Shown: one piece after another, positions 17,476 through 35,795 of the stretch
Layout: every line of letters begins with the position of its first letter
Position numbering within the stretch: position 1 is the stretch's first letter
IMG/VR virus record: IMGVR_UViG_3300025849_000016
Span: 1-64,000 of that record
Reading direction: 5' to 3' (one strand)
Length of the DNA: 64,000 nucleotides
From: a virus
Made by a program: the position numbers and the translations under genes
Notes under the pieces: model-generated
The model's input: the letters and a program-made list of their open reading frames with translations, nothing else
What the model was told of the DNA's origin: nothing
Database searches by the model: none

Positions 17476-17919
17476 ATGAAAACAAATATAGTATGTAGTG
17501 GAGCACTTTTCTTTTCTAAAGAAACTGAACGATTTTTACTGTTGCATAGAGCAAATGGTAAAAAAAATAACCTTTGGGGATTAGTCGGCGGCGGCAATGA
17601 AGAAGGCGAAACTCCGTTTGAAGGTTTAAAACGAGAAATTATTGAAGAAATAGGAAGTATGCCGCCTATTAAAAAAACTATTCCTCTTGAAAGTTTTGTA
17701 AGCAATGATGAAAAATTTCATTTTCACACATATTTGTGCTTAGTAGAGCAAGAATTTATACCTATTTTAAATAATGAACATAACGGTTATGCATGGGTTT
17801 CTTTCGGTATGTGGCCAAAACCTCTCCATCATGGACTTAAAAATACCCTTCAAAGTAAAGTAAATCAGACAAAATTGCGCACAGTTTTTCAAGTAATATC
17901 TTTACTTGACGAAATTTAA
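17476..17919 (+). CDS. NUDIX hydrolase
   Basis: Nudix box GGGNEEGETPFEGLKREIIEEIG; LNNEH..YAW. Confidence 0.9.
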   Translation: MKTNIVCSGALFFSKETERFLLLHRANGKKNNLWGLVGGGNEEGETPFEGLKREIIEEIGSMPPIKKTIPLESFVSNDEKFHFHTYLCLVEQEFIPILNNEHNGYAWVSFGMWPKPLHHGLKNTLQSKVNQTKLRTVFQVISLLDEI

Positions 17920-17939: not shown

Positions 17940-19097
17940 ATGAAAGTTCTAGTTATAGGCGATATTATAATTGACAAATACATCTATGGATCAAGCCATC
18001 GCTTGAGTCCGGAAGCACCTGTGCCTGTAGTTGCACAAGATCGTATAGAAGAATCTATTGGTGGTGCAGGACTTGTTTATAAAAATTTAAAAAGTCTAGG
18101 CGTAGATGTTGATCTAGTTGATATTTTTGACAAAGTTAGCGTAAAAACTAGAGTAATTTGTGACGGTCATTATGTCACACGCATAGATGACGATTATTAT
18201 GCAGACGGAGAACAGTTTCTTCAGTATATTTTAACACAAGATTTTAGTGATTACGACTATGTAATATTAAGTGATTACAACAAAGGCGTGTTAACCAAAT
18301 CTTTAAAAATCATCGAACATATTAACCAGTTTAATTGTCGTGTGATTGTAGATCCTAAAGATCATGCAACACATTATGAAGGTGCTTGGTTAGTAAAACC
18401 TAACGAAAAAGAATTTCAAGAATACTTCCTTAACTGGCAGGGTAATATTATTACTACTCGAGCAGGTAAAAGTGTTATTGCTAAAATAGATAATGAAGTT
18501 TATGAAGTAGCTGTAGACAATGTCGAAGTTAGTGATGTAACCGGCGCCGGCGACTGTTTCTTGGCTGCATTTGTTTATGCCCTTACAAAAGATTACAATT
18601 ATAAAAAAGCAATCGAACTTGCTGTACAAGGATCAACAGAAAGCGTTAAGCATGTTGGTACATACATTCTTACAGAAAAAGATCTAAAGAAAAAAGTAGT
18701 GTTTACCAATGGGTGTTTTGATGTACTACATAAAGGACACCTTACACTGCTTAAACAAGCCCGTAGCTTAGGTGATAAACTTGTAGTAGGACTAAACAGC
18801 GATACTAGTGTAGCACGACTTAAAGGTGCTAATAGACCATTTAATGATGTTAATACACGTAAAGAACAACTAGAACTTATTCCATATGTAGACCAAGTAG
18901 TAGTATTTGAAGAAGATACTCCTTACAATCTAATTAAGGAATTACAGCCAGATTTAATTGTCAAAGGCGGAGATTATACTGTAGAAGAAATAGTAGGACA
19001 CGATCTAGCACCAGTACATATTGTTCCTACTGTACAGGGTCATAGTACCACAAGAATTTTAGGAGATTTAGATGAAAATATTAATCACGGGGTATAA
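17940..19097 (+). CDS. hldE: Bifunctional heptose 7-phosphate kinase / heptose 1-phosphate adenylyltransferase
   Basis: VIGD..IDKYIYG...RLSPEAPVPV, LSDYNKG, VDPK, KPNEKE, DVTGAGD (PfkB); FTNGCFDVLHKGH, GLNSD.SV.RLKG..RP, LIVKGGDY, STT (nucleotidyltransferase). Confidence 0.93.
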   Translation: MKVLVIGDIIIDKYIYGSSHRLSPEAPVPVVAQDRIEESIGGAGLVYKNLKSLGVDVDLVDIFDKVSVKTRVICDGHYVTRIDDDYYADGEQFLQYILTQDFSDYDYVILSDYNKGVLTKSLKIIEHINQFNCRVIVDPKDHATHYEGAWLVKPNEKEFQEYFLNWQGNIITTRAGKSVIAKIDNEVYEVAVDNVEVSDVTGAGDCFLAAFVYALTKDYNYKKAIELAVQGSTESVKHVGTYILTEKDLKKKVVFTNGCFDVLHKGHLTLLKQARSLGDKLVVGLNSDTSVARLKGANRPFNDVNTRKEQLELIPYVDQVVVFEEDTPYNLIKELQPDLIVKGGDYTVEEIVGHDLAPVHIVPTVQGHSTTRILGDLDENINHGV

Positions 19098-19902
19098 AGG
19101 TTTTATAGCCCAAAATTTAGGTAGATATTTACACAGCAAAGGTCACGAAGTAGAAGGATTTGACTGGATACCAAATACTCTTCCTGCTGTTGATTTTTAT
19201 GATCAAATTATTCATCTTGGTGCTATTAGTGAAACAACATGTACTGATGTTGAAGCAGTAATGGATCAAAATTTAGACTTTTCAACAAGATTGTTAGGAT
19301 TATGCGAAGCGCATGGAACTAATTTAATGTATGCATCTAGTGCTAGTGTATATGGTCCTTTAAAAAATTGTAAAGAAACTGCACCGTGTTTACCTAAATC
19401 ACCGTATGCCTGGTCAAAATATCTTTTTGATCGTGTTGTAACTTCAGCTGATATTAGTAGTTTTGGATGTAGAGTGCAAGGATTTAGATATTTTAACGTA
19501 TTCGGCGAATACGAAGACCACAAAGGACCTCAGGCTAGTATTTTTCATCAATTTCGTAAACAAGCATTAGGTGGGTGCATTAAACCTTTTGTAAATTCTG
19601 ATAATTACTACCGAGATTTTATATATGTTGGCGATATTTGCAAAATTACCGAAAAATTCTTAGATATTGACGAGAGTGGTGTATGGAATGTAGGTAGCGG
19701 TCATGCAGAAAGTATTGGCGCGGTGGCAAAATTCATGGCCGAACGCATGAATGTACCTATAGAAGAGGTAGAAATGCCAACATCACTACTTGGTCAGTAT
19801 CAAGAATACACATGTAGTGATAATACTAAACTTTTAAACACAATTGGGGACTTTAAGTTCACTACACCTTATGAATGGATGGAAAATGGCAACAAGACTT
19901 GA
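19072..19902 (+). CDS. hldD: ADP-L-glycero-D-manno-heptose 6-epimerase (SDR family)
   Basis: ITGYKGFIA, HLGAIS.T, YASSASVYG, YAWSK, GFRYFNVFG..EDHKG..AS, RDFIYV; overlaps hldE. Confidence 0.88.
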   Translation: MKILITGYKGFIAQNLGRYLHSKGHEVEGFDWIPNTLPAVDFYDQIIHLGAISETTCTDVEAVMDQNLDFSTRLLGLCEAHGTNLMYASSASVYGPLKNCKETAPCLPKSPYAWSKYLFDRVVTSADISSFGCRVQGFRYFNVFGEYEDHKGPQASIFHQFRKQALGGCIKPFVNSDNYYRDFIYVGDICKITEKFLDIDESGVWNVGSGHAESIGAVAKFMAERMNVPIEEVEMPTSLLGQYQEYTCSDNTKLLNTIGDFKFTTPYEWMENGNKT

Positions 19903-20284
19903 AGGAAAAATAGATAAAGGTTGGGGATTTGAAATAATCTGGGCAACAAATGACAAATATTGCGGTAAAATTATGGTTTTTGAGAAAGTTGGTGCAAAGT
20001 TCTCTATGCACTTTCATCGAGAAAAGGACGAAACATGGTTTGTTAATAATGGCCGCTTTATTGTTCGCTGGATTGACACAAAAACTGCAAAAATGAATAT
20101 GCAAGAGTTAAAAGAAGGCGATACTTGGCATAATCCACCGTTGCAGCCACATCAATTAGAATGTATTCAAGCAGGAAGCTCGATTACCGAAGTTTCTACA
20201 GCCGATTCAGTTGAAGATAATTATAGAGTTTTTCCAGGAGATAGCCAAACAACTATGCCTGAGCCTCTCCCCACTTTAGAATAA
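19886..20284 (+). CDS. Cupin, sugar(-phosphate) isomerase-like
   Basis: KGWGFE, YCGK, SMHFH..KDETW, PHQL, EVST..S.EDNYRV.PGDSQ metal-cupin motifs; start at MATRLEG overlapping hldD. Confidence 0.8.
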   Translation: MATRLEGKIDKGWGFEIIWATNDKYCGKIMVFEKVGAKFSMHFHREKDETWFVNNGRFIVRWIDTKTAKMNMQELKEGDTWHNPPLQPHQLECIQAGSSITEVSTADSVEDNYRVFPGDSQTTMPEPLPTLE

Positions 20285-23200: not shown

Positions 23201-26200
23201 GAACATAGTTACTAACAGTTCGTTGTATACTAAATTGTGCTCCGTTACCAACAAGTTGAGCATAAAGTCCGATTAGTGCAGTATACGTTCCGCTTCCGTT
23301 TCCTCCTGTACCGCTTACAGTAGTTCCTGTTATGCCGCCGACGCCGTTAACTGTTGATACTGTAATAGTAAAATCATTTGCAGGAGAATCTCCGCCTAAT
23401 TCACTACCTGATATTATTATTACATCTCCTATTTTATAATTTTCACCAGGACTTGATATTAAATCTAATGAATATACAGTTGCAGTATTTGTAATATTAA
23501 ATGAAGCACCAGTTCCGGCATCATTTACTCCTGTTACCGCTGGTAGTAATTCAGTATTTAAAGCTACTCCTGAAATGTTTTTATCTGTAATGCCACCATT
23601 GCCATCAACTTGTGAAACAGTTATAACTAAATCATTTGTAGGAGTTGCGCCGCCCAATGCAGTACCTAATATGTTTAATGTATCACCTACTACAAATCCT
23701 GATCCTCCACCAGTTATATTAGCACTATATGTTGTTCCTACTCTTGATACTTGGAAAAATGCGTTTATACCATTTCCAGCAGTTGTATATGGAGCATTAT
23801 CGTAGCTTGCAAAGCCGTCAGTAGCTGTACCAGTTTCAGATACTGTTAAAATTTCACCATTTAACCCTACAGAATTTACTGTTATTGTTACATCATTGAC
23901 AGCATCGCTACCACCTAATATATCACCTGTTATAATTATAGTGTCACCATTACTATATCCAGAACCTCTAAGATCTGACGGAGTACCTGTAATATTTGCA
24001 CTTGTAATAGCACCACTTGCATCAACACCTGTAACAGATATAGTAGCATCGTTGACTAAAGTTGTACCTCGCAATGAAATACCTGGAATAGTAATTACAC
24101 TACTAGTTGTAAAATATTCGCCTCCGTTAATAATTGATATTGAATAAGATCCTGCACTTTCTGTAATAGTTGCTTGTGCATTTTGACCGTATACTGATAT
24201 TCCTGTTTGGCTGCTAAATGAATAAGAATCAAGTCCAGTTCCTGTAATTGATGCAGTTGTAATATCACCACTTCCGCCAATTCCTGTAATTGTTATTGTA
24301 GCATCATTTGCAGGAGAACTGCCGCCTAACTCAGTACCACTAATTACAAATGTTTCGTTAGTAACATAATTTTGTCCAGGATTTGATATTTGAACACTGT
24401 AAGCAGTGCCTGCTTGGAAAATTACAAATTGAGCATCAGTACCAGTAGCACCAGCATATGTTGCAATAAACGAAGAATATGTAGCATCTTTAGCTGCTGC
24501 TGTTCCGCTAGAAGAAACATTAGTAATTGCTCCGGAAACACCATCTACACCTGTTACCGTTAGTAAGCAATCATTTGTTGATGAAATACCTGTTAAGGAC
24601 GATCCATCTATAATCAGCTGATCACCGATCTCATAATCTGTACCACCGAATTCAATTATAATACTATACGTTCCTGAAACTGCATCTACTGTAAATAATG
24701 CACCTGTTCCTAAAGGTGGCGGCACTGCTACATTTACAGTTTCGTTTAATGAAGATGTTGCTACACTATATGTATTATTAGTTTTCGTAACATCAAAAAA
24801 TGCTCCTGTTCCTACTCCTGATTGCAATTGGCCAAATACGTTTGTAAAAGAACCATCTGCAGGAGCTGCTGTGCCAGTTTCAGTAAATGTTAGAATTTCT
24901 CCACTGGCGCCGACTGTAGAAACACGTATGTAAATATTATTAGCAGGATTTGCACCGCCTAATAGACTACCAGATAATTCTAAAACATCGTTAACTACAT
25001 AGTCAGCTCCGCCATTGTTAACACTAGTAGTGTACGATCCTGCAGATCTAGAAACATCAAATGTAGCGCCAGAACCAAGAGTTGCCGACAATAGATTTGC
25101 AGAAAGATCTACATATGTAACATCAGACCCAGCTCTATTAGCAGTTAATGGTCTATCTAAAAATACTTCTTGTCCGGAAATATTAGTTACAATACCTGCG
25201 CTACCATCGCCAAGATCAATTGCCATGCCGACAACAATACCGGATGTATCAATTACATCGAAGCTATTTTGACCTTCTGGAACATCTTCTGCAACTCCAG
25301 CTGTAACTTGTACACCGGTTCCGTTACCAATAGAACCTGTTACTTGTGATCCAATAGGTACACTATATGGTAGAGCGCCCTGTTGTACAAGCGGAGCACC
25401 TAGTTCCGGTATAGTGCCGTTGACTGTTATAGTGTCAGAACCGGTAGGATGTGACAATGATGTTACAAAAGTACCAGCACTACCTTGACTTGATATTTTA
25501 AAAGTAGGAGAGCCAACTGCTGCACCGGTATAAAATCCAGCTTTTCTTAATTGCGTATAATATGTTGATAGTACTTGACCATTACTAGTCCCAACTTTTG
25601 ATTTTGCATAATATGTAAAACTAGTAGAAGTTGGAATAGTAGTTACAACAAACGAACCTTCAGCTCGTCCAATTCCTAGTGCAGTTCCGCCTAACCCTTT
25701 AATTGTAAAAGGGTCACCTGGATTTAAAGAATGAGGTGAAGTTGTTGTTACTGTAATTAAACTTGCGCCAATTCCCGATGTTGCGATTGAAGCATCAGTT
25801 ACAACGTCTATAACATTTAATTCTGTTCCAGGAACTTCGTATATACTAGGATACCCTCTCTGCATACCAATTGCCTGCCATTTAGTAGGCTGTAATCCGT
25901 ACTCAAAGTCAGCATCAAGCATCGACTGTGCATTTGCAACTCTTTGTCTTTCAATAGCATCAGTACCAAAATCAAACGGGCGTGTTATAATTTCTGGTGT
26001 CTCTATAAAAATTTGTAATCTATCAGTAGAAGAATGAGTTGCTGTACTAAAGTAAAGTTTAATACTTGTAATTGTATCAGCTGTTTGACTAAAGCTGCTA
26101 AATTCCGCTTCAATCGCCGCATCAACATCAGAATCTTTAAGGAATTCAACATCAGCAATTTTGCCAGGGTCGTTAAAGGTGTATATTATTTCACCTTTAG

Positions 26201-27623
26201 TAACATTTGTTATTAAAAGAATGTCTTCTTCTCTATATCTACCTTGGACACGTATTGTACCTAATCCGTTTACTTTTTCTGGTAATGCACTAGTTCCGTT
26301 TTGTATTACATTAGTGAGTAAAGTTCTTAATGTAGTAACTGAACTAATTACTCCAACTTCAGCAGTCTTTGAAAGATCAATTACTTGTGATGTTCTTACA
26401 GGATCCTGTCGTGTAGTAAATTCTGTGTTTTGTAATATATAATCATTTATTAAAGTTTCAATAAATTCGTGTGTTTCAACTTCTGGTAATCTACTACCAT
26501 CTACTTGAGGAACACCTTTTTTCCAATAAAATGATGATACTTCGTATGTTGACTTATTTCCAGTGTATCTTATGTCGTGCAAATATGCATCTATCACATA
26601 GCCTATATCTCGTTCGCATTTATATTCATTATATGTATATTCAGCAAACGCATACCCATATGTATCTACAGGAATACTATCTAAACCATTAACAACTGTT
26701 TGTTTAGCAACAGTTATAAAATTTGTTATTTTTGATGTAACACCTGTTTCAGCAGCTGATCCCGCCTGTGCTTGTATTATTTCTGTTTGCAATACTGGAG
26801 TTTTTAATATGTTTTGTAATACATAATTATTTACCATAGCTTGTAATTCATCAAATATTAATTGCACAGCTGCTCTATTACCAGGAATTACCGAAGTTTC
26901 ATCATCCCATAATAGTCGTATTGCACTATTAGTATTAAATGTACCACCGTATTTAACATCGTATGCCAGGCCATTAACTAAATCAGTTAAAATAGTATTC
27001 CAAAGCGTTTCATCGTATGTAAATCCGTAGAATGGAGTAGATACTGCATTAACTAATGCAGAGGCAAATGTGTGTGTACTAGTATCAGATGATATACCAA
27101 CATTTATAGTAATTGATGTTGCATCAACTGATGAAATTTCTATAATATTATGTGCATAAGGATCATTACCGGTAATATTAGAAACACCTGATTCTCTTGG
27201 ATACGGATGAAGAGTTGAATTATTGTCTTTTGCACAAGTAAATGTAATACCACCGATTGCAATCTTAATATAATCACCTGGTGAATAAGAGTGTGCGCCA
27301 ATTGTTATATTTAATACTCCAGTTGTAGGAGTATATGTAGCATCTGAAGGAGTATATGAAGTTTGCGGCGCTGCTATTTCAGTTTGAATCCACTCCTTTA
27401 ACTCTCTTTTAATAAAAGATTTATTGGCTGCAAGTTGTCCAGAGGCATTAGGATTTAAATCCTGGGCAGTGTCTAATGCAATTCTATAATTTATATATTC
27501 TACCGCTTCGTCTTTTATATATTCTTTGTTCGAGGAGATCATTGAATATGCTTCTGGTACTACATTTTCTAAAACCCCTCTTCCTGGGTTAAAAATATAC
27601 GTTGAAATCTTCTTTTTTGCCAT
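20253..27623 (-). CDS. Very large virion structural protein (2456 aa) with helical KCxRD..GN segments and eight ~80-aa Gly/Thr-rich beta repeats
   Basis: YKCERDIGYVIDAYLHDIRYTGN, DADFEYGLQPTKW, YIRYQSGKG, IQYSWYGAG motifs typical of large proteins of aquatic T4-like phages; AGGA RBS. Confidence 0.7.
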   Translation of the reverse strand: MAKKKISTYIFNPGRGVLENVVPEAYSMISSNKEYIKDEAVEYINYRIALDTAQDLNPNASGQLAANKSFIKRELKEWIQTEIAAPQTSYTPSDATYTPTTGVLNITIGAHSYSPGDYIKIAIGGITFTCAKDNNSTLHPYPRESGVSNITGNDPYAHNIIEISSVDATSITINVGISSDTSTHTFASALVNAVSTPFYGFTYDETLWNTILTDLVNGLAYDVKYGGTFNTNSAIRLLWDDETSVIPGNRAAVQLIFDELQAMVNNYVLQNILKTPVLQTEIIQAQAGSAAETGVTSKITNFITVAKQTVVNGLDSIPVDTYGYAFAEYTYNEYKCERDIGYVIDAYLHDIRYTGNKSTYEVSSFYWKKGVPQVDGSRLPEVETHEFIETLINDYILQNTEFTTRQDPVRTSQVIDLSKTAEVGVISSVTTLRTLLTNVIQNGTSALPEKVNGLGTIRVQGRYREEDILLITNVTKGEIIYTFNDPGKIADVEFLKDSDVDAAIEAEFSSFSQTADTITSIKLYFSTATHSSTDRLQIFIETPEIITRPFDFGTDAIERQRVANAQSMLDADFEYGLQPTKWQAIGMQRGYPSIYEVPGTELNVIDVVTDASIATSGIGASLITVTTTSPHSLNPGDPFTIKGLGGTALGIGRAEGSFVVTTIPTSTSFTYYAKSKVGTSNGQVLSTYYTQLRKAGFYTGAAVGSPTFKISSQGSAGTFVTSLSHPTGSDTITVNGTIPELGAPLVQQGALPYSVPIGSQVTGSIGNGTGVQVTAGVAEDVPEGQNSFDVIDTSGIVVGMAIDLGDGSAGIVTNISGQEVFLDRPLTANRAGSDVTYVDLSANLLSATLGSGATFDVSRSAGSYTTSVNNGGADYVVNDVLELSGSLLGGANPANNIYIRVSTVGASGEILTFTETGTAAPADGSFTNVFGQLQSGVGTGAFFDVTKTNNTYSVATSSLNETVNVAVPPPLGTGALFTVDAVSGTYSIIIEFGGTDYEIGDQLIIDGSSLTGISSTNDCLLTVTGVDGVSGAITNVSSSGTAAAKDATYSSFIATYAGATGTDAQFVIFQAGTAYSVQISNPGQNYVTNETFVISGTELGGSSPANDATITITGIGGSGDITTASITGTGLDSYSFSSQTGISVYGQNAQATITESAGSYSISIINGGEYFTTSSVITIPGISLRGTTLVNDATISVTGVDASGAITSANITGTPSDLRGSGYSNGDTIIITGDILGGSDAVNDVTITVNSVGLNGEILTVSETGTATDGFASYDNAPYTTAGNGINAFFQVSRVGTTYSANITGGGSGFVVGDTLNILGTALGGATPTNDLVITVSQVDGNGGITDKNISGVALNTELLPAVTGVNDAGTGASFNITNTATVYSLDLISSPGENYKIGDVIIISGSELGGDSPANDFTITVSTVNGVGGITGTTVSGTGGNGSGTYTALIGLYAQLVGNGAQFSIQRTVSNYVLSNVQQGGTGYQIGNTLLVPGGDVGGTGGVNDVLIVVEGIDATGAITNTSISGTVTSSAALEFYSTVTMTEVLTAPLAAGVSIAFEQLATIEIDFTNPHGIVPGATLIVSVASDDGGANNHNLAAGSFIATTVPTTSRITYQARTAGTIDTGIDNADAISGSVYLRPDSFFVHRPYDGGVQLGTGGPQHGAQAIRQSKNYIRYQSGKGIMYTTGALFAPSYDILSISAAGATIGSLITIEIDDADHGLQVGGVIELLGVETAGYDGIYTVTDVVNERVLKVTATTQLGSRLPVLSDSCQISVKSWHGSTVRAGAFDDQNGIFWEYDGDSLNVVQRSSTFQVAGLVNVDPEDNLVTGVGTRFKDQLKTGDRVVLKGMTHVISHIDSQTQMSLTPDYRGVRPAINAKMCLVKDKKVRQENFNLDKMDGTGQSAYDVDISKMQMIGIQYSWYGAGFIDFMMRGSNGNFVFCHRMRNSNVNTEAFMRSGNLPVRYEVTNEGPNGKLADTIDNTQTSITLEDASYFPALGATLYIDNEIITYTGKNGNVLTGCTRGTSLINFQAGAQRTYTGGPAASHGRRTGVIILSSTITPIISHWGSAFITDGGFDEDRGYIFSYAATGVELSTTRQTAFLIRLAPSVSNAITGDLGDRELLNRAQLLLNGIEVTSDPLGATDTGGVIVEGVLNPQNYPTSPSSVNWVSLNTQAEGGQPSFAQVVSGAGIDWGVGATVTEDVATVAADVTIQGTSSVYNRNITYIYVKSADNLAIEPGMTVTGTDGQGRDIYRDNTVVTTIQRNIGTAYFGNSERYHLADRINISRGTSRSSYNFTTNFTYSAPTGVTTKLLFPSLTFTATGATTGTPIDVSDTNFSAGTIISSVEAVTLDGTAYSVVELNQAALSTFTAGDTVTFNLTEAAYAKPGETIFKFIAVPGERSELDLSPIKELTNTSLGGRGAFPNGPDVLAINIRKTSGVPILGNVILKWGEAQA
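23035..25085 (-). repeat. Eight ~80-aa domain repeats (GxGAxFx...GGxxYxxGDxxxIxGxxLGGxxPxNDxxITV)
   Basis: Visible in the translation; boundaries approximate. Confidence 0.85.
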
Positions 27624-29051: not shown

Positions 29052-30836
29052 TTATTCACTAGTACAAGTAATCAATGTTTTATATTCTGGTAGATAAAGA
29101 TAGTTAATTTTACTTTTACTTAATGTCCATAATGCATCTTCGAGTGTTTCAACTAGTGGCTCGCCACCTAAATTAAAACTAGTATTAAAGATAATTGGAC
29201 ACCCTGTAGCGTCTTTAAATGCTTTTATAAGGTTGTAATAATTTTCATTTTGCTCTCTGTTTACAGTTTGTATACGACAAGTGCCATCTACATGAATGAT
29301 AGCAGGAATCTTTTCTTCGACGCCTGGCTGACAGTTTACCGCATACATCATTGTAGGCGAACTTTCCATGCCACGTAAGTCAAACCATTCGTGTACATCT
29401 TCTTCTAGTATACTACCTGCAAATGGACGGAAGTATTCCCTATGCTTTACACTATTAACAAAGTCTTTACCATTAGGGTCAGTTGGATCGTATAAAATAC
29501 TTCTATTACCCAATGCACGTGGACCATTTTCACTTTTACCTTGAAATATGCTTACAATATTTTTATCTGTAATTAACTTTATAACATCTTCGTTAGTTGC
29601 TGATTGTACTGTAGCATTATATTTAGATGCTATTTTATTAATATCATCAGATGAATATTGATAAGAGAATCCTTCATAAAGTGTTTCTTTTCTTTCACGC
29701 ACATTAGTATCTCTACTAATGTTATACCATTGTAATAGTGCAGCACCCATTGCTGTACCGCTATCATTAGATACAGGCTCTACATATATTTCTATATCTT
29801 TATCTAAATTATCTAAGTAATAATAATTTGCAACACAATTTAGTCCGTAGCCTCCACTAATAACAACTTTATTTTGTCCAGTCATTTCTACTGCTTTGTG
29901 AATTAATTTTAAAACTTGTTCTTGTGTTTGTGTTTGCACTGCATATGCAAGATCTCTTCTATTTTGCAATAATGTTAAATCTTGACCTTCTTCGCCGCTA
30001 TCAGATAATTCTAGATAAACATCTTTATTTATATATGCACCATTTGGATAAGTAGGAATAATTAAATTTCTATTGCTCACATCACCGTAGGCAGTTTCAT
30101 GAAATAATGATGGAATGTTATTGTTAGGTTTACCATAAGGAAATAATCCCATAGTTTTACCTGCTTCGATAAAATTCCAACCACAGTATTCTGTTACTGC
30201 TTCGTATGTTTTTGTAATTCCGGCTTTTTCAAATACATAGGCTTCGTGAGATTCGTTGTCATTAAATATTCCGCCATCAATATTAGTTGCAAATTTTTCA
30301 ACAGTCGGGCCTGTAGTTCCTATGTTTTTTCTAATTGTTTGTATATTGTTAGGATACGAACAATTAAAAATTGTTTCAACTTCCCAAACTACATTATCTC
30401 CCATATTAATAAATGTACCTGCACCGTCGACTACTACGCCTGCTGCTGTATCAAATCCGCTACGATAAAATGCACACGCAGCATGTAATTTATGATGATA
30501 AGAACTCATATCTATTACTTGAGGATGGTCAAACGGATTTTCTTTCCTACTAATTAACCCTAGTTTTCTAGCAAGCCCAGTGTATACATCATCACCACTA
30601 AAATCTATTCTTGATGCTTCTGCTAATGGTTGGGTATGTGCAATAACTAGATAGTCTATTTTATCTGTATATTCTAATATTTTATACATTCCTGCAAAAG
30701 GGCCGCCGTCATATTTTTGACGGCTTAGTCTTTCTTCTTCTATATTAAATATCACTTCGCCGTCTTTTAAAAGACATACACTACTATTATGTCCTCTAGC
30801 AATAGCTGCAATCCAAATAGAATCTGTTTTAATCAT
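29052..30836 (-). CDS. O-carbamoyltransferase, NodU/CmcH/TobZ family
   Basis: HNSS, EEERLSRQKYD, HHKLHAA, VVDGAG, GKTMGL.PYG, GGYGLNCVAN, NDSG, ENGPRALGNRSI, VKHREYFRPFA, HVDGTCRIQTV, NTSFN..GEP. Confidence 0.95.
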   Translation of the reverse strand: MIKTDSIWIAAIARGHNSSVCLLKDGEVIFNIEEERLSRQKYDGGPFAGMYKILEYTDKIDYLVIAHTQPLAEASRIDFSGDDVYTGLARKLGLISRKENPFDHPQVIDMSSYHHKLHAACAFYRSGFDTAAGVVVDGAGTFINMGDNVVWEVETIFNCSYPNNIQTIRKNIGTTGPTVEKFATNIDGGIFNDNESHEAYVFEKAGITKTYEAVTEYCGWNFIEAGKTMGLFPYGKPNNNIPSLFHETAYGDVSNRNLIIPTYPNGAYINKDVYLELSDSGEEGQDLTLLQNRRDLAYAVQTQTQEQVLKLIHKAVEMTGQNKVVISGGYGLNCVANYYYLDNLDKDIEIYVEPVSNDSGTAMGAALLQWYNISRDTNVRERKETLYEGFSYQYSSDDINKIASKYNATVQSATNEDVIKLITDKNIVSIFQGKSENGPRALGNRSILYDPTDPNGKDFVNSVKHREYFRPFAGSILEEDVHEWFDLRGMESSPTMMYAVNCQPGVEEKIPAIIHVDGTCRIQTVNREQNENYYNLIKAFKDATGCPIIFNTSFNLGGEPLVETLEDALWTLSKSKINYLYLPEYKTLITCTSE

Positions 30837-31807
30837 TATGCTGCATCCTTAACAACCGGTTTACCGTTCCATTTTTTTTGATTTTTAATACACGATTCAA
30901 CAATAACATTTTCTATTTTCTCATTCATACGCATAATACCTTCATTCATTCTATCTGTATATTCATCTACAGTTATACGAATTGGACTGTAAATTTTAAC
31001 ATCATCGCCCATATCTAATATATCAAAATATTTACAATTAGGGTAACTAACATTAATGTCAAATGTACTTCCTAATACTATTGTTGTCGGAACATTAAGT
31101 GCGTATGATAAATGCTGACCGACACTATCGCACCCTAAAAAATAATCAGATTGGTTAATTATAGCAGCCCATTCTCTTAAAGATGCACCTTGAGGGATTG
31201 CAATAGGTTCCTTAATATCATATTCGTCAAACTGTATACCTATTTCAGACATAAACACTACAGCGAATTTTTTTGAAAGTTGTTTAACAATGCTTATAAC
31301 AGACTCAGGTTCAAAGCTTCGTCCAGTAGGATCTATAATCATACCTTCTTCATTATGAATTCCTCTGCCAAATGGTTGGAATACTATTATCTTATCTTTT
31401 TTTGTTTTTTCTTTTATTTCTTTTATAAGTTTTTGAGCAAATACAGTTTCTTGTTTTCCCAAATATATTTTAGGTTGAGGCAAGTCTCTTAAACCTTTTT
31501 TATTAATTTCTATATCATATGCTTGGCCAATGCTACATTTTTGATTATAGTATTCCCATACTCTGTACGGTTCAGGACTTAATAAATTCATATCTTTTAA
31601 TTTATCTTCAAATAAATTTTTATGCCATGTATCGTATGCACGTTTATGTAGTGAAGGATGCCCTTTGTAAAAATCAGTGCCTCCTTCACATACTATGATA
31701 AAATCATCATTTGGATTTTCTTTTTCAAATAATTCTAATGCAGGTATACTAGTAATTACTCTACCAGCGCCACCGTTTATAAAAATTGCTGTATTTCTGT
31801 TGGACAT
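30836..31807 (-). CDS. GT-B glycosyltransferase, GT9 (heptosyltransferase)-like
   Basis: C-terminal LREWAAII..SDYFLGCDSVGQHLSYALNVPTTIVLGST matches the GT9 signature; P.IYL and IVFQPFG; N-terminal GGAGRVITSIPAL; TAATG-coupled to the carbamoyltransferase. Confidence 0.75.
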   Translation of the reverse strand: MSNRNTAIFINGGAGRVITSIPALELFEKENPNDDFIIVCEGGTDFYKGHPSLHKRAYDTWHKNLFEDKLKDMNLLSPEPYRVWEYYNQKCSIGQAYDIEINKKGLRDLPQPKIYLGKQETVFAQKLIKEIKEKTKKDKIIVFQPFGRGIHNEEGMIIDPTGRSFEPESVISIVKQLSKKFAVVFMSEIGIQFDEYDIKEPIAIPQGASLREWAAIINQSDYFLGCDSVGQHLSYALNVPTTIVLGSTFDINVSYPNCKYFDILDMGDDVKIYSPIRITVDEYTDRMNEGIMRMNEKIENVIVESCIKNQKKWNGKPVVKDAA

Positions 31808-31865: not shown

Positions 31866-32525
31866 TTACTCTGGGTCCGGAAGTTCATTTCCTGGAGTAA
31901 TTTCATCATTAGGATTTTCAGGAACTGTAGGAAATCTAACCTCCCAAGGTTCATAATCTGCCCAAGTTGTAGTAAGATTTCTTAATGCTGTTCTATATTC
32001 TTCCCATGGACTTTTAATTGCATCCGGAATATCTTCTCTAACTCTTGCATCAGACCATACTAATAATCCATCTCTCGATGCTCTAATATCATCCCATGTT
32101 TTTAAATCACGTTCCCAAACATAAGACCAAGTTTTAGTAGCAGCATCATACGATACCCCTTCATTACGATACACTTCATGTGGCGGTAATGGATCGTAAT
32201 CTCTAAGAGAAGTACCATCTGGTAATTCCCAAGATCTCGTCGGTGCGTTGCCGTCAAAGTCTGTAGCTATTAATGTTGCTACTAAAGGATCAACAGTTGG
32301 GTCAACTTCTACTTTTATTTCAGTAGGTACAGGATTAAATGTTTCACCATCTGTTTCTACTGTTAAATAATTTCTTGGTTCTAAAGTACCGTCTAGACTA
32401 TCAACAAATACCCATAATCTATCTGGACCTGTATAAGTCCACGATGCATTAGTATAATTTTCTAAATTAGGCTCACCGCGTTTGTTAGGTGTTTTATAGC
32501 TAAAATTTACACTTATTGTTGTCAT
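31866..32525 (-). CDS. Tail fibre assembly chaperone-like protein (paralogue 1)
   Basis: C-terminal WDDIRASRDGLL.WSD....D.P.....WEEYRTALRNL...FP..P (phage tail assembly chaperone motif); YTGPDRLWVFVD shared with 34054-34704. Confidence 0.8.
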   Translation of the reverse strand: MTTISVNFSYKTPNKRGEPNLENYTNASWTYTGPDRLWVFVDSLDGTLEPRNYLTVETDGETFNPVPTEIKVEVDPTVDPLVATLIATDFDGNAPTRSWELPDGTSLRDYDPLPPHEVYRNEGVSYDAATKTWSYVWERDLKTWDDIRASRDGLLVWSDARVREDIPDAIKSPWEEYRTALRNLTTTWADYEPWEVRFPTVPENPNDEITPGNELPDPE

Positions 32526-32533
32526 TACTAATC

Positions 32534-33277
32534 CTATCTAAATATTAAATATACTTGGCCGCCGGCGCCCGGTGTTCCACATTGGCTAGTACAACCGCCT
32601 TGTGTATGCGATGTCATACCACCTCCGCCTGGAAATGTTCCGAAGTAACATCCTGCGCCATATCTATTCATACAGCAACCATTTTCAAACATACGTGTAT
32701 GTCCTGTCATTGCAGGTCCTGGATTAACTTCATATGTGTGCTGATAACACCAATTGTTACCGAACACATATGATAAATTTCTTGGATGTATGGTACTAGT
32801 TACTCCGGTACCGGCAACATTGCCGCCTGTTTCTTGACAAACACGCTGACATGTGTAGCAATTGAACCCATTACATTGCCAGTAGCCATGACATCCGCCA
32901 CATGCTATAACACACCATGCACCAGGTTTACAAACATATGAGTTGTTGCCATTTTCGCAACTACTGTAGCTTCTACAACATGTTGAACCAGCTGCGCATA
33001 TAGTAACACTATCACCAGCTGAAACCGGTGCATGAAATTCTACATAACCACCTGGACTGCCACCGCAACCATATGTACAACAATAGCCACCTGCGCCAGC
33101 GCCGCCGCCTGCCCAAACTTCTCCACTTACGCCTTTAACACCAGTCGGAACTGTAAAAAGACAGCAAAAGCCGCCATTATTACCTGTATCAATGTTAGTG
33201 TTAAACACTGTTATTTCTGTAGGAGTCTGTGCGCCACCTGCATCGTATCCGTATAAATATTCTCTTAAATTAGCCAT
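32534..33277 (-). CDS. Cys-rich (23 Cys) glycine-rich-domain fibre/adhesin-like protein A
   Basis: NNGGFCCLFTVP.GV...EVWAGGGAG ... GTPGAGGQVYLIF; AAGGA RBS. Confidence 0.65.
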   Translation of the reverse strand: MANLREYLYGYDAGGAQTPTEITVFNTNIDTGNNGGFCCLFTVPTGVKGVSGEVWAGGGAGAGGYCCTYGCGGSPGGYVEFHAPVSAGDSVTICAAGSTCCRSYSSCENGNNSYVCKPGAWCVIACGGCHGYWQCNGFNCYTCQRVCQETGGNVAGTGVTSTIHPRNLSYVFGNNWCYQHTYEVNPGPAMTGHTRMFENGCCMNRYGAGCYFGTFPGGGGMTSHTQGGCTSQCGTPGAGGQVYLIFR

Positions 33278-33286
33278 TTTACATCC

Positions 33287-34036
33287 TTACTCTGAAGCAA
33301 CATACAATAATTGTACCATACCTGAACCGCCGGGAGCACCACAGTATGTACCGCTTGAACTATTACCACTCATGCCACCATGTCCTGGATAAGGTACACA
33401 GTTCCCCATAAATGCTAACCCGTGACAGTTTGCACAACCAGTCGTACTCCATATTCCTGTTGTGTGTGCATACGGTGCTCCAGGAGCAAACTGTTTAAAG
33501 TTACACTTACCGCCATATGTCCATTTTCCGTGTCCTTGTACAGGACGTATACATAATGTTGCACCAAGTATACAACCTGTTTGGCAGTTATTTAATGAAT
33601 TGCCGCATTGACAGTTGCCGTAACTGAGTGTACAACCTCCACTGCCGCCGCTTACACACAGACAGCAAGTGCTTGCTTTACACATATAAGATCCAAATCC
33701 GGTACACCCACAACATGAACTTAGACAACATGTAGTACCGCCTGCACATATAGTCCAATTGTCACCTGGAGTTACATCAAATATTTTTCTTCCGTATGCA
33801 CCTGGTCCACCGCTTCTGCCTGCGTGACAATTAGGTGCTCCAGCGCCAGAGCCGCCGCCGCCCCAGGCTTCAACACCTATCCATGTAACGTTGTCAGGCA
33901 CTGTCCATAAACAACATCTGCCGCCGTTATTTACTGCTGATGGACTACTTGCAAGTATTCGTGTAACAGTCATAGTTCCGTTAGTAGGTACATCCCCGCC
34001 GCTGCCAAATTCTAGTAATGTTCTTAAACCTGCCAT
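33287..34036 (-). CDS. Cys-rich (24 Cys) glycine-rich-domain fibre/adhesin-like protein B
   Basis: NNGGRCCLWTVP.NV...EAWGGGGSG ... GAPGGSGMVQLLY; AAGGA RBS. Confidence 0.65.
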   Translation of the reverse strand: MAGLRTLLEFGSGGDVPTNGTMTVTRILASSPSAVNNGGRCCLWTVPDNVTWIGVEAWGGGGSGAGAPNCHAGRSGGPGAYGRKIFDVTPGDNWTICAGGTTCCLSSCCGCTGFGSYMCKASTCCLCVSGGSGGCTLSYGNCQCGNSLNNCQTGCILGATLCIRPVQGHGKWTYGGKCNFKQFAPGAPYAHTTGIWSTTGCANCHGLAFMGNCVPYPGHGGMSGNSSSGTYCGAPGGSGMVQLLYVASE

Positions 34037-34053: not shown

Positions 34054-34704
34054 TTATGCTGAGTTTTCTGGTGATTCAGGAAATACTACTTTATGCGGAT
34101 CAACTCCTGCCCACTGTGTTGGTAATGCTCTTAGTGCTGTTCTATAAGCTACCCACGTTGCTTTTAAAGCAGATGGCATATCTTCAGCCATCATATTATC
34201 TGATCCTTCTAAAGCAGAATTTCTTGCTGCACGTAACAGATCCCAAGTAAATTCTGATTCTTTAAAACTATACGTCCACGCTCCGTCTGCATAACGCACT
34301 GTTTCAGGATCAATTATTTCTTCTGGATTTTGAGGCCAGTCGTAGCTATATGTTGCTGTAGTGTCATCGGCTAATGTAATTGTTTCAGATACTGTTTCTC
34401 TTGCAGTTTGTTGTGTATATCCGCTAATATCTAATAAAGATGCTATTACTGGATCGTCATTAGAGTTTACAATTACCTTTACAGCACCACCTGGTGTGCC
34501 TATATCTGCTCCGTCGTTTTCGTCTGTTAATGTCGGCCACATGCCTTGTGATAGTATTCCTGTTGTTTCGTCTACAAATACATACCATTTATCTGGTCCT
34601 GTATAAGTTGCATTAACTGTTACATTGTTGCTAGTAGATGTGCTATATTGCTCATCTGGAGCAGTAAATGTAAATGCTTTAGTTATGATATTATTGTTTG
34701 GCAT
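34054..34704 (-). CDS. Tail fibre assembly chaperone-like protein (paralogue 2)
   Basis: WDLLRAARNSALEGSD...EDMP.....WVAYRTALRALP...FPESP. Confidence 0.8.
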   Translation of the reverse strand: MPNNNIITKAFTFTAPDEQYSTSTSNNVTVNATYTGPDKWYVFVDETTGILSQGMWPTLTDENDGADIGTPGGAVKVIVNSNDDPVIASLLDISGYTQQTARETVSETITLADDTTATYSYDWPQNPEEIIDPETVRYADGAWTYSFKESEFTWDLLRAARNSALEGSDNMMAEDMPSALKATWVAYRTALRALPTQWAGVDPHKVVFPESPENSA

Positions 34705-34715
34705 TTTTTCTTTCC

Positions 34716-35447
34716 TTATGCAAATGACACTCTAATTACTCCGCCCATTCCTGGAGTACCACAACGGCAAACTCCTGAACATGTTATAGCGTTTGATCCA
34801 GGACCTGCTGGAAAGTGTCCGTATCCAAAGCAGCAAGCATTACAATATGTTGTATTCAGGCAAGTTGATCTTGTAGCATTAAAAGTACCTAATTGATAAG
34901 CACCTCCCATGATCCATTTTTGTGTGTTCATACAACTTCCTTCTGAATGAGTTGTGCCTCTGATTCCCGGCATACACCAGTCACCAGCTGTCTGTTTACA
35001 CACAACACATCCAGAACAGCAAGTAGGTACAGCTAATGTAAAACACGATGTTCTACCTGGTTCACCAGATGGTGCGCATGTTGTTGCTATTCCTGATCCT
35101 GATACAAATGTAGTTTGTCCAGCTGAGCCGCCGCAGCTACTTTGACAACACCCGCTACCTGCTGCACAAAGCGTATATGTACAGCCTGCTTGTGTTGTTA
35201 CAGTACGCATTGCATACATACCGCCTGATCCTGTATATACCGGAGCTTGACAACATCTTGCTGCTGGGCCATCAGCTCCTGATCCCCATAATTCAAATGT
35301 TACTTGTGTTACTCCGTCTGGCACAGTCCATAAGCAACACCGACCACCATTGGTAACGCCCCTAGTGTCGTTTGATATTACTATACTATTGACCCCGGGG
35401 TTAGTTTGTGGAGCTAGATCTGATTTTAAACTGCTTAAACTTGCCAT
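34716..35447 (-). CDS. Cys-rich (24 Cys) glycine-rich-domain fibre/adhesin-like protein C
   Basis: TNGGRCCLWTVPDGV...ELWGSG ... GTPGMGGVIRVSF; AGGA RBS. Confidence 0.65.
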   Translation of the reverse strand: MASLSSLKSDLAPQTNPGVNSIVISNDTRGVTNGGRCCLWTVPDGVTQVTFELWGSGADGPAARCCQAPVYTGSGGMYAMRTVTTQAGCTYTLCAAGSGCCQSSCGGSAGQTTFVSGSGIATTCAPSGEPGRTSCFTLAVPTCCSGCVVCKQTAGDWCMPGIRGTTHSEGSCMNTQKWIMGGAYQLGTFNATRSTCLNTTYCNACCFGYGHFPAGPGSNAITCSGVCRCGTPGMGGVIRVSFA

Positions 35448-35462
35448 TGTATTTTCCTAAAA

Positions 35463-35795
35463 TTACGATCCTGCTAAGACCCATCCATATGTTGCGCCAC
35501 TATATACTAATGTAGCTGAACTATTTCCGATATCTAATGCTAAATCTTCAGCTAACCCGTGTATGTTATGCCCGTTTCTTGCTAATGTACAATTGTTAGT
35601 ACCAAAGTTTCCAGCAACATCAATAAATTGAATAGTATCATTTATTAGTGTTGTTGCTGTACTCGGTAGTGTAACTGTAACTGCTACTGACGAAGTGTCA
35701 ATAAGTAGACGTTCATTTGCTACTGCGGTTGTGTTTCCGGATATTGCACGTACTGTAGTGCTTGCCGAACCTGTTGTTGTAATGTATCTTGCCAT
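35463..35795 (-). CDS. Single-domain fibre connector protein (T4 gp34/gp9-like repeat domain)
   Basis: IDTSS..VTVTLP...DTIQFIDVAGNFGTNNCTLARNG.NI.G..EDL.LD...LVY...YGW; GATAAATA at 35815-35822. Confidence 0.65.
   Translation of the reverse strand: MARYITTTGSASTTVRAISGNTTAVANERLLIDTSSVAVTVTLPSTATTLINDTIQFIDVAGNFGTNNCTLARNGHNIHGLAEDLALDIGNSSATLVYSGATYGWVLAGS

What the first reader, a model, noticed from the sequence alone, without database searches (positions are those of the whole stretch)
31740..31807. GT9-like enzyme has Arg where heptosyltransferases have the catalytic Asp: possible S-glycosyltransferase
Seen: the N-terminal loop reads FINGGAGRVITSIPAL. Known: WaaC/WaaF-type enzymes have G-D here (xGDxxxxxPxL), and the Asp is the general base for a hydroxyl acceptor. 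Inference, from by-eye alignment: Asp-to-Arg would not suit O-glycosylation but could stabilise a thiolate, which fits the three ~10%-Cys proteins next door. It could also suit a phosphate or carboxylate acceptor, or mark an inactive enzyme.
Basis: partly seen in the sequence, partly recalled or inferred. Interest (0 to 1): 0.8.

Follow-up and report, generated by a model that had tools for sequence, protein, structure and literature searches.

The report
Phage heptosyltransferase-like enzyme with Arg for Asp
A tail-fibre-module gene of a marine T4-like cyanophage encodes a heptosyltransferase-fold (GT9) enzyme in which the family's usual catalytic aspartate is replaced, across a large phage-only subfamily, by an arginine that changes together with one glutamate and a second arginine, so the residue swap is real but sugar attachment to cysteine is only one unproven possibility.

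Summary
ORF 30836-31807 (-) begins with the stated loop, and R16 (AGA, 31760-31762) sits where WaaC and WaaF have the catalytic D13. Three results agree on this: profile-profile alignment (97.3%), structural alignment offsets, and its place in the first turn of helix 1.

The AlphaFold model (pLDDT 95.9) matches GT9 structures at Z 19-24.5; the next family scores about 13. The donor-side residues are kept (D227 matches WaaC D261, H232 matches H266, R163/S164 lie at K192), so this does not look like a dead enzyme.

The Arg is typical of the family: 73 R and 3 K among 78 sequences (77 representatives of 50%-identity clusters and other homologues, plus the query), and no D or E.

A new point is that the five sequences without R16 are exactly the five without R277. 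Four of them are the only ones without E79, the sole conserved acid in the acceptor domain. E79 is therefore a candidate alternative base.

The gene is translationally coupled to a carbamoyltransferase. It travels with ADP-heptose genes and three ~10%-Cys fibre proteins in cyanophages. N4-like Vibrio phages keep the same triad without such neighbours.

The most likely function is heptosylation of virion fibre proteins; the acceptor atom is unknown. S-glycosylation has a probability of about 0.1.

The parts
30836..31807 (-). GT9-fold (GT-B) glycosyltransferase-like gene, 323 aa; member of phrog_8954
   Evidence: ORF. phrog_8954 at E 2.4e-141. hhalign to E. coli GT9 enzymes 97.3%. AF2 pLDDT 95.9. 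Foldseek and VIA top hits are all GT9: 3tov, 1psw, 4rb4, 2h1h.
31760..31774 (-). G12-G13-A14-G15-R16 loop; R16 codon AGA at 31760-31762, at the position of the WaaC D13 catalytic base
   Evidence: G12, G13 and G15 are in 77/78 sequences; R16 in 73/78 plus 3 K.
31565..31573 (-). E79-P80-Y81 motif directly after strand beta4. E79 is the only conserved acidic residue of the N-terminal domain and a candidate alternative general base or salt-bridge partner of R16.
   Evidence: E79 in 74/78; P80 and Y81 in 78/78. The four sequences lacking E79 all lack R16.
30977..30979 (-). R277 (Y-x-P-x-R loop of the C-terminal domain), which changes together with R16
   Evidence: The five sequences lacking R277 are exactly the five lacking R16. 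Parsimony gives 5 separate changes on the tree.
31112..31129 (-). Donor-site motif D227-S228-x-G-Q-H232, matching WaaC D261...H266
   Evidence: hhalign and HMMER alignments. D227 and H232 are each in 77/78.
31316..31321 (-). R163-S164, at or next to the position of WaaC K192 (donor phosphate contact), after a 17-residue family-specific insertion
   Evidence: hhalign puts S164 on K192, and R163 precedes it. R163 is in 77/78.
29052..30836 (-). NodU/CmcH-type O-carbamoyltransferase, translationally coupled to the GT gene (TAATG overlap at 30836)
   Evidence: Pfam Carbam_trans_N and Carbam_trans_C. Overlap read. Present in 77/80 and 53/53 related loci.
32534..33277 (-). Cys/Gly-rich fibre protein A (247 aa, 23 Cys)
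   Evidence: (phrog_4205).
33287..34036 (-). Cys/Gly-rich fibre protein B (249 aa, 24 Cys)
   Evidence: (weak Gly_rich_2).
34716..35447 (-). Cys/Gly-rich fibre protein C (243 aa, 24 Cys). Its model resembles the cyanophage Pam3 fibre and the ALK/LTK glycine-rich domain.
   Evidence: AF2 pLDDT 78. Foldseek hits 7ypx at 1.9e-7, 9d93 and 7nx1.
31866..32525 (-). Tail-fibre assembly chaperone-like protein
   Evidence: Phage_tail_APC (weak) and phrog_4912.
34054..34704 (-). Tail-fibre assembly chaperone-like protein
   Evidence: Phage_tail_APC at E 7e-12.
17940..19902 (+). HldE-like sugar kinase/nucleotidyltransferase (17940-19097) and NAD-dependent epimerase (19072-19902): the likely supply of the NDP-heptose donor
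   Evidence: Pfam PfkB + CTP_transf_like, and Epimerase. The same genes lie directly after the GT-carbamoyltransferase pair in P-SSM2 and S-CAM1 and in 37/53 loci.

Best explanation
The gene encodes an active, divergent GT9-type (GT-B, ADP-heptose-type) glycosyltransferase. It belongs to a large subfamily found so far only in phages.

The C-terminal donor-binding half is canonical. The acceptor half is reduced to four strands and has a rebuilt active site. The G-D catalytic base of WaaC, WaaF and TibC is replaced by a G-G-x-G-R loop, and R16 works as part of a co-evolving set with E79 (after strand 4) and R277 (a loop of the C-terminal domain).

The most likely mechanism is as follows. The phage makes its own NDP-heptose with the HldE-like enzyme and the epimerase. 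Late in infection the transferase puts heptose on a virion tail-fibre protein; the adjacent Cys/Gly-rich fibre proteins are the prime candidates in cyanophages. The translationally coupled carbamoyltransferase then O-carbamoylates the sugar.

Within the active site, E79 is the best candidate for the general base if the acceptor is a hydroxyl. R16 and R277 would then position E79, clamp an anionic or polar feature of the acceptor, or stabilise the departing ADP phosphate.

Shown here: the fold, the residue equivalence, conservation, covariation and gene linkage. Inferred: enzyme activity, the donor, the acceptor protein, the acceptor atom and the role of each triad residue.
For: - **Fold and family.** VIA-align gives Z 24.5 (3tov), 22.2 (WaaF), 20.3 (TibC) and 19.6 (WaaC), against at most 13.3 for other GT-B families. 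Foldseek's best E-values (ranks 1-11) are all GT9. hhalign gives 97.3%.
- **Family members that reach Pfam GT9.** Some members do: P0231, a GT8 fusion, scores 22.7 bits against a cut-off of 22. P0273 and P0281 carry precomputed PF01075 hits.
- **Donor site kept.** D227, H232, R163 and D159 are each in 77/78 sequences.
- **R16 at the D13 position.**
- **Family-wide basic residue.** R or K occupies position 16 in 76/78 sequences. The Vibrio phage proteins and nine further relatives also have it.
- **Triad covariation.** Five separate lineages lost R16. All five lost R277, and four of the five changed E79. Every other conserved position changed in at most two of the five. P0254 differs from the consensus only at positions 16 and 277.
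- **E79.** It is the only conserved acid in the N-terminal domain.
- **Linkage to the carbamoyltransferase.** A TAATG overlap couples the two genes. The pair occurs in 77/80 and 53/53 related loci.
- **Linkage to heptose genes.** Heptose-pathway genes lie directly downstream in P-SSM2 and S-CAM1 and in 37/53 loci. In this window they lie at 17.9-19.9 kb.
- **Host LPS.** Cyanobacterial LPS is reported to lack heptose and Kdo (abstract of PMC4515613). The canonical GT9 acceptor is therefore absent from the host.
- **Tail-module position in two unrelated phage groups.** The gene sits among fibre genes in T4-like cyanophages and in N4-like Vibrio phages.
- **The Cys-rich neighbours are real fibre proteins.**
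Against: - There is no biochemical evidence for activity, donor or acceptor.
- The spatial closeness of R16, E79 and R277 is inferred from Rossmann-fold topology and covariation only. The tools do not expose model coordinates.
- The phylogenetically controlled sign test is underpowered. Only 2 pairs lie on well-supported branches (5 on the best tree), so it cannot reach p<0.05.
- Four of the five variant sequences are otherwise divergent, and P0254 comes from a single 1.1-kb contig. Some could be decaying genes or sequencing errors.
- Within cyanophages, linkage to the fibre genes could simply reflect inheritance of one block.
- The Vibrio phage homologues have no carbamoyltransferase or heptose genes nearby, so the donor there is assumed to come from the host.
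Confidence: 0.5

Rival explanations
1. This is the first reader's reading: the enzyme is an S-glycosyltransferase. R16 stabilises a cysteine thiolate of the neighbouring ~10%-Cys fibre proteins, and the thiolate attacks ADP-heptose without a general base.
For: The catalytic Asp is replaced by a conserved basic residue. Three proteins with 23-24 Cys sit within 4 kb. They co-occur with the gene in all 53 long cyanophage loci, even where the module is inverted. In cultured phages, tblastn finds Cys-rich homologues only in genomes that also carry the transferase. About half of the Cys columns are variable in position (15 columns at 30-80%), so not all Cys need be structural. From background knowledge, an Arg next to a thiol lowers its pKa in other enzyme classes.
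Against: The R16/E79/R277 set is equally conserved in N4-like Vibrio phage homologues, which have no 10%-Cys neighbour. R16 changes together with a conserved Glu that could be an ordinary base. The same fibre proteins offer 36-53 Ser/Thr. Twelve Cys columns are at least 80% conserved at 37% mean identity, which suggests disulfides or metal sites. From background knowledge, known S-glycosyltransferases use other folds or an ordinary His base and have no such Arg. No test available here can tell S from O.
Confidence: 0.1
2. The acceptor is not a fibre protein. It is an anionic, non-protein molecule, such as a phosphorylated or acidic sugar, a lipid-linked glycan or a host envelope component. R16 and R277 form a two-arginine clamp for a phosphate or carboxylate, which either lies next to the nucleophile or is the nucleophile itself.
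For: Two co-varying arginines from opposite domains replace the acid. The G-G-x-G-R loop at a helix N-terminus looks like an anion-binding loop (inference). There is precedent for an inverting GT-B enzyme with an anionic acceptor in a positively charged pocket and no carboxylate base: SenB with selenophosphate (PMC11237966). One family member is fused to a GT8 domain, which is typical of oligosaccharide-building enzymes. Cyanophage 'LPS gene' clusters have long been read as host-surface modifiers (background knowledge).
Against: The gene sits inside late tail-fibre operons in two unrelated phage groups. Cyanobacterial LPS is reported to lack the usual Kdo/heptose inner core. No membrane-association or lipid-binding feature was seen. 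A conserved Glu in the site argues for a hydroxyl nucleophile.
Confidence: 0.2
3. R16 acts on the donor side. It contacts the ADP ribose or phosphates when the two domains close and helps the leaving group depart. The enzyme then works without a protein base, with the phosphate or a water acting as base, on an ordinary hydroxyl acceptor.
For: In SenB the first N-domain helix contacts the donor: the Gly19 amide binds a phosphate and Arg22 binds the ribose (PMC11237966). In apo or binary HepI the D13 site is more than 8 A from the anomeric carbon and needs domain closure (PMC5713226). R277 from the donor domain co-varies with R16.
Against: In the five variants that lost R16 and R277, the other donor-binding residues stay conserved. 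That fits an acceptor-side role better than a donor-side one. E79 co-varies too and has no obvious donor role.
Confidence: 0.12
4. The protein is a catalytically dead GT9-fold scaffold or chaperone for fibre assembly, comparable to the GT9-like subunit of plant NDH-PSI complexes.
For: It lacks the canonical base. GT9-fold subunits of plant NDH-PSI supercomplexes are close structural matches at Z 18-19.6 (7wff, 9grx, 7f9o); that these subunits are non-enzymatic is background knowledge. The gene lies beside fibre chaperones.
Against: The donor-site residues D227, H232, R163 and D159 are about 99% conserved down to ~26% identity. The gene is tightly linked to NDP-heptose synthesis genes and a sugar carbamoyltransferase. 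The replacement residue is itself under strong constraint.
Confidence: 0.06

Closest known systems
LPS heptosyltransferases WaaC (HepI) and WaaF (HepII), CAZy GT9 (PDB 2H1H, 6DFE, 1PSW)
   Same: Both have the GT-B fold, with Z 19-22 over 254-274 residues. The beta1-loop-helix frame G-x-V-h-x-x-x-P-A-L is the same. The donor motif D-S/T-G-x-x-H and the G-P/S-T turn match. Likely NDP-heptose donor, by gene context.
   Different: The catalytic D13 is Arg. In HepI, D13A lowers activity 4688-fold, and D13 is present in all HepI-IV enzymes (PMC5713226). The N-terminal domain is about 50 residues shorter, with four strands. There is a 17-residue insertion before the K192-equivalent position. E79-P-Y and Y-x-P-x-R277 are new motifs. 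The query falls below the Pfam GT9 threshold. The Kdo/heptose LPS acceptor is reported absent from the host.
Autotransporter heptosyltransferases TibC/AAH (BAHT family; PDB 4RAP, 4RB4)
   Same: TibC has the GT9 fold (Z 20.3) and is the known example of a GT9 enzyme that heptosylates a repetitive, beta-rich surface protein. That makes it the best functional analogue for fibre decoration.
   Different: TibC keeps the Asp base (D110; PMC4358343). TibC also has an N-terminal extension of about 90 residues and forms an iron-containing dodecamer; the model aligns only to TibC residues 91-398, so the phage protein lacks that extension. TibC modifies Ser.
GT9 protein from Veillonella parvula (PDB 3TOV, function not established)
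   Same: It is the best structural match: Z 24.5, rmsd 3.3 over 282 residues.
   Different: Identity is only 13%.
SenB selenosugar synthase (GT-B, inverting, anionic acceptor)
   Same: It shows how a GT-B enzyme can work without a carboxylate base: an anionic nucleophile sits in a basic pocket, and the first N-domain helix contributes Gly amides and an Arg (PMC11237966).
   Different: SenB belongs to a different GT family, uses a UDP-sugar donor and has no detectable sequence relationship. This is an analogy only.

Membership tests
CAZy GT9 / Pfam PF01075 (heptosyltransferases) | GT-B two-domain fold closest to solved GT9 structures | tested here: met
   Z is 24.5 to 18.4 for 3tov, 1psw, 4rb4, 2h1h and the plant GT9-like subunits. 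The next family (GT1) scores at most 13.3. Foldseek's best E-values (ranks 1-11) are all GT9.
CAZy GT9 / Pfam PF01075 (heptosyltransferases) | Sequence-profile membership (Pfam gathering score) | tested here: not met
   The query has no Pfam hit at E<=0.1. NCBIfam heptosyltransferase models score 12-21 bits against cut-offs of 170-467. Homology is nevertheless supported by hhalign at 97.3%, E 2.5e-11. A few family members reach PF01075.
CAZy GT9 / Pfam PF01075 (heptosyltransferases) | Donor-site residues equivalent to WaaC K192, D261 and H266 | tested here: met
   D227 matches D261 and H232 matches H266. K192 aligns to S164 with the invariant R163 next to it, so this one is approximate because of a 17-residue insertion. 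All are at least 95% conserved.
CAZy GT9 / Pfam PF01075 (heptosyltransferases) | Catalytic Asp in the N-terminal G-D motif (WaaC D13, TibC D110) | tested here: not met
   R16 occupies the position. Across the family it is R in 73, K in 3, C in 1 and S in 1, with no D or E.
CAZy GT9 / Pfam PF01075 (heptosyltransferases) | Transfer of heptose from ADP-heptose with inversion | not testable with these tools
   Only context is available: HldE-like and epimerase genes in the window and directly adjacent in P-SSM2, S-CAM1 and 37/53 loci.
BAHT (TibC/AAH protein O-heptosyltransferases) | N-terminal extension of about 90 residues (iron binding and dodecamer formation are from the TibC paper) | tested here: not met
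   The model aligns to TibC residues 91-398 only. The phage protein starts at strand beta1.
BAHT (TibC/AAH protein O-heptosyltransferases) | Protein (Ser) acceptor on a repetitive surface protein | not testable with these tools
   Position in the fibre module is the only hint.
Known peptide S-glycosyltransferases (SunS/ThuS/GccA type, GT2) | GT-A fold with a metal-binding DxD motif (background knowledge) | tested here: not met
   The model has a GT-B fold. If the protein is an S-glycosyltransferase, it would be of a new kind rather than a member of this group.

The most novel reading that the evidence does not exclude
The GGxGR/E79/R277 site marks a new chemistry in the GT9 fold: heptosylation, followed by carbamoylation, of cysteine thiolates on the Cys-loaded polyglycine fibre proteins. 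That would be the first S-linked heptose, the first GT-B protein S-glycosyltransferase and the first chemically defined tail-fibre glycan in a marine phage.
Probability: 0.1. Interest if true: 0.85.

Novelty: new variant of a known kind. Interest (0 to 1): 0.55.

Why it matters
GT9 enzymes are textbook inverting transferases with an Asp base. This is a large subfamily, with over 3,500 proteins at 90% clustering and 421 clusters at 50%, seen so far only in phages. It has swapped that base for a co-evolving Arg-Glu-Arg set while keeping the donor site.

Such a swap points to a different acceptor or mechanism that could be tested directly. Three cultured phages already carry the module: S-CAM1, P-SSM2 and S-SSM7.

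If the product is a carbamoyl-heptose on tail fibres, abundant ocean cyanophages would be shown to chemically decorate their receptor-binding proteins, using a sugar that the host's LPS is reported to lack. That would bear on host range, on adsorption and on why cyanophages carry so-called LPS genes.

Tried and rejected
The gene contexts of the distant and variant family members could not be read.
- **Single-protein scans** for P0254, P0208, P0186 and P0179 found no loci in viral contigs. P0254 also found none in metagenome contigs.
- **The genome-contig scan** with the GT8 fusion P0231 matched only its GT8 half, in one Bacteroidetes MAG. Whether cellular genomes hold this family was therefore not settled; the Atlas lists its clusters as 100% viral.
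- **A SIS-type GmhA (PF13580)** was not found in the 106-kb record, which is about 31% complete.
- **Complex prediction** of the transferase with Cys-rich protein C gave no verdict (score 0.00). It counts neither for nor against binding.
- **The extra ~298-aa ORFs** between the transferase and the carbamoyltransferase in related loci are not paralogues of the transferase.
- **D/N11 as a shifted base** was considered and rejected. The position varies (D 39, N 28, T, S, E, Q) and is Asn in the query.
- **The independent-pairs sign test** for covariation is underpowered. The covariation is therefore reported as suggestive, not proven.
- **Direct measurement** of R16-E79-R277 distances was not possible, because model coordinates are not exposed.
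Full report
**Setting.** The window is part of a 106.7-kb IMG/VR record of a T4-like cyanomyovirus. Its closest cultured relatives are S-CAM1, S-CAM3, S-SSM7, S-SSM6a, Sf-FS3, P-SSM2 and P-SSM5, with 46-54% identity for this protein.

The finding lies at the 5' end of ORF 30836-31807 (-), which is 323 aa long. The ORF sits in a co-oriented run of tail-fibre genes. The run contains:
- a fibre-connector domain (35463-35795, T4 gp9/10-like);
- three Cys/Gly-rich proteins (34716-35447, 33287-34036, 32534-33277);
- two tail-fibre assembly chaperone-like proteins (34054-34704, 31866-32525);
- this gene;
- a NodU/CmcH-type carbamoyltransferase (29052-30836);
- further fibre proteins.

**The observation.** The protein begins MSNRNTAIFINGGAGRVITSIPAL, and R16 is AGA at 31760-31762. 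The motif itself occupies 31736-31783, so the stated range clips its end slightly.

'GT9-like' is not obvious from standard searches:
- There is no Pfam hit at E<=0.1.
- There is no PDB sequence hit for the single sequence.
- phrog_8954 has no known function.
- NCBIfam gives only weak hits, 12-21 bits, to heptosyltransferase I/III/RfaQ over residues 204-268.

I collected homologues to build a profile. There were 3,528 hits in the 90%-clustered database, some named ADP-heptose:LPS heptosyltransferase by JGI. There were 421 clusters at 50% identity. From these I built a 78-sequence alignment, A1.

hhalign of A1 against E. coli WaaC, WaaF, WaaQ and WaaU (alignment A2) gives probability 97.3% and E 2.5e-11 over residues 7-264. 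It aligns GGAGRVITSIPAL with SSMGDVLHTLPAL, so R16 pairs with D13. HMMER's local alignment to WaaC chains gives the same register.

The AlphaFold2 model has pLDDT 95.9 and pTM 0.93. Foldseek's best E-values (ranks 1-11) are all GT9 structures. VIA-align gives these scores:

| Structure | Z |
|---|---|
| 3TOV (Veillonella GT9) | 24.5 |
| WaaF | 22.2 |
| TibC | 20.3 |
| WaaC | 19.0-19.6 |
| Best other GT-B family | at most 13.3 |

Model residue 4 aligns to residue 1 of WaaC and WaaF, the same offset of 3. R16 lies in the first turn of helix 14-30, after strand 6-10, as D13 does in WaaC. The residue equivalence therefore rests on three concordant lines of evidence.

The literature confirms what this position means. 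D13 is the proposed base in all HepI-IV enzymes, D13A lowers activity 4688-fold, and K192 and D261 are also required (PMC5713226). TibC uses the equivalent D110 (PMC4358343).

**Not a dead enzyme and not a one-off.** Position 16 is R in 73, K in 3, C in 1 and S in 1 of the 78 sequences, never an acid. G12, G13 and G15 are each present in 77/78.

The donor half is intact. D227 and H232 match WaaC D261 and H266. R163/S164 fall at K192, after a 17-residue insertion. D159, Q144-P145-x-G147 and G246-x-T248 are nearly invariant.

Two N4-like Vibrio phage homologues at 24% identity keep all of these residues, as do nine further relatives.

**A coupled triad.** Conserved positions were tabulated for the sequences that depart from the consensus. 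The five sequences without R16 are P0186 (C), P0208 (S), and P0246, P0248 and P0254 (all K). They are exactly the five without R277 (T, D, G, P, Q). Four of them are the only four without E79 (N, K, D, D).

These five sit at five separate places in the tree, each next to sequences with the normal set. Parsimony counts 5, 5 and 4 changes at positions 16, 277 and 79.

Every other conserved position changes in at most two of the five. P0254 differs from the consensus only at positions 16 and 277.

Some caution is needed. The phylogenetically controlled sign test has too few pairs to reach significance. Several of the variants are long-branched singletons.

E79, in the invariant E-P-Y motif, is the only conserved acidic residue of the N-terminal domain. 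It lies directly after strand 74-76. In a Rossmann-type sheet that strand neighbours strand 1, so E79 should lie beside the R16 loop. This is an inference, because coordinates are not exposed.

E79 is therefore a credible alternative base or salt-bridge partner.

**Context.** The stop codon of the gene overlaps the carbamoyltransferase start codon (TAATG).

Two sets of related viral loci were examined:
- Among 80 loci with 62-86% identity, the carbamoyltransferase is present in 77 and the Cys-rich proteins in 62-63. Many of the remaining loci are cut short on the side where these genes would lie. The linkage survives an inversion of the fibre block.
- In a second set with 50-71% identity, all 53 loci of at least 15 kb hold Cys-rich ORFs and the carbamoyltransferase. 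Of these, 37 also hold the HldE-like, epimerase and cupin genes within 9 kb.

In P-SSM2 and S-CAM1 the order of genes is transferase, carbamoyltransferase, nucleotidyltransferase/kinase, phosphoheptose isomerase, epimerase. In this window the HldE-like and epimerase genes lie at 17.9-19.9 kb.

Cyanobacterial LPS is reported to lack heptose and Kdo (PMC4515613 abstract). This explains why the phage carries the pathway itself, and it means the classical GT9 acceptor is missing from the host.

Carbamoyltransferase homologues are more widespread, in 136 phage records. The full-length ones with at least 47% identity occur only in phages that also have this transferase.

In N4-like Vibrio phages the homologue sits between the tail-fibre gene and a large tail protein. 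There are no sugar-pathway genes or carbamoyltransferase nearby, and no 10%-Cys protein. The adjacent tail protein has 2.4-4.4% Cys.

**The Cys-rich proteins.** They carry 23, 24 and 24 Cys (9.3-9.9%), 16-21% Gly, and 36-53 Ser+Thr.

A model of protein C (pLDDT 78) resembles the cyanophage Pam3 fibre (7YPX, E 1.9e-7), Bxb1 tail-tip proteins and the ALK/LTK glycine-rich domain. They are genuine fibre or receptor-binding modules.

Across 142 distinct paralogues with 37% mean identity, 12 Cys columns are at least 80% conserved and 15 are variable. This fits a mostly structural role for the Cys residues, with room for others.

**Interpretation.** The data support an active, phage-specific offshoot of GT9 with a rebuilt acceptor site. 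It most likely uses phage-made NDP-heptose late in infection to decorate a fibre protein, and the sugar is then carbamoylated.

The data do not identify the acceptor atom:
- The thiolate idea is chemically possible but has no specific support. It is weakened by the Vibrio phage homologues and by E79.
- An anionic acceptor is equally open, with SenB as a precedent for a GT-B enzyme with an anionic nucleophile (PMC11237966).
- A donor-side role for R16 is also equally open.

Literature searches found no paper on this family or on cyanophage fibre glycosylation.

**Verdict.** This is a new variant of a known kind, of moderate interest, with clear experiments to settle it.

Noticed in passing
L013:8935-10724 and L044:9008-10831 (related cyanophage loci): Many relatives carry one or two extra ~298-aa ORFs between the GT9-like gene and the carbamoyltransferase. 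These have no Pfam hit and no similarity to the transferase. This window lacks them. They may be further steps of the same modification pathway.
   Followed up: partly
L013:7141-7974: A carbon-nitrogen hydrolase (nitrilase-like) gene lies directly upstream of the transferase in some relatives.
   Followed up: no
L003:6311-6970 and L003:10507-13651 (S-SSM7): S-SSM7 has a 2OG-Fe(II) oxygenase-like gene immediately before the transferase. Downstream it has a second Nol-type carbamoyltransferase and a tryptophan halogenase, which suggests a larger tailoring cluster.
   Followed up: no
window 19844-20284 and 17476-17919: A cupin and a NUDIX gene flank the HldE-like/epimerase pair. No SIS-type GmhA was found in the 106-kb record, whereas P-SSM2 and S-CAM1 do annotate a phosphoheptose isomerase. 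The cupin travels with HldE and the epimerase in 37/53 related loci.
   Followed up: partly
L006:8742-11519 and L005:8747-13678 (Vibrio N4-like phages): The tail protein directly downstream of the Vibrio phage homologue has 39-41 Cys (2.4-4.4%), clustered in two regions. It has no detectable similarity to the cyanophage Cys-rich proteins.
   Followed up: partly
P0231 (metagenomic protein, 558 aa): This is a natural fusion of a GT8 domain with a member of this GT9-like family. The GT9 half reaches the Pfam PF01075 threshold.
   Followed up: partly
window 20253-27623: A 2,456-aa structural protein downstream carries about a dozen repeats of a ~70-aa Gly/Asp-rich module. It is another possible glycosylation target in the same block.
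   Followed up: no
PDB 7wff_a, 9grx_1, 7f9o_6: Subunits of plant NDH-PSI supercomplexes are close GT9-fold matches to the model (Z 18-19.6). This shows that the fold can also occur as a subunit of a large complex.
   Followed up: no
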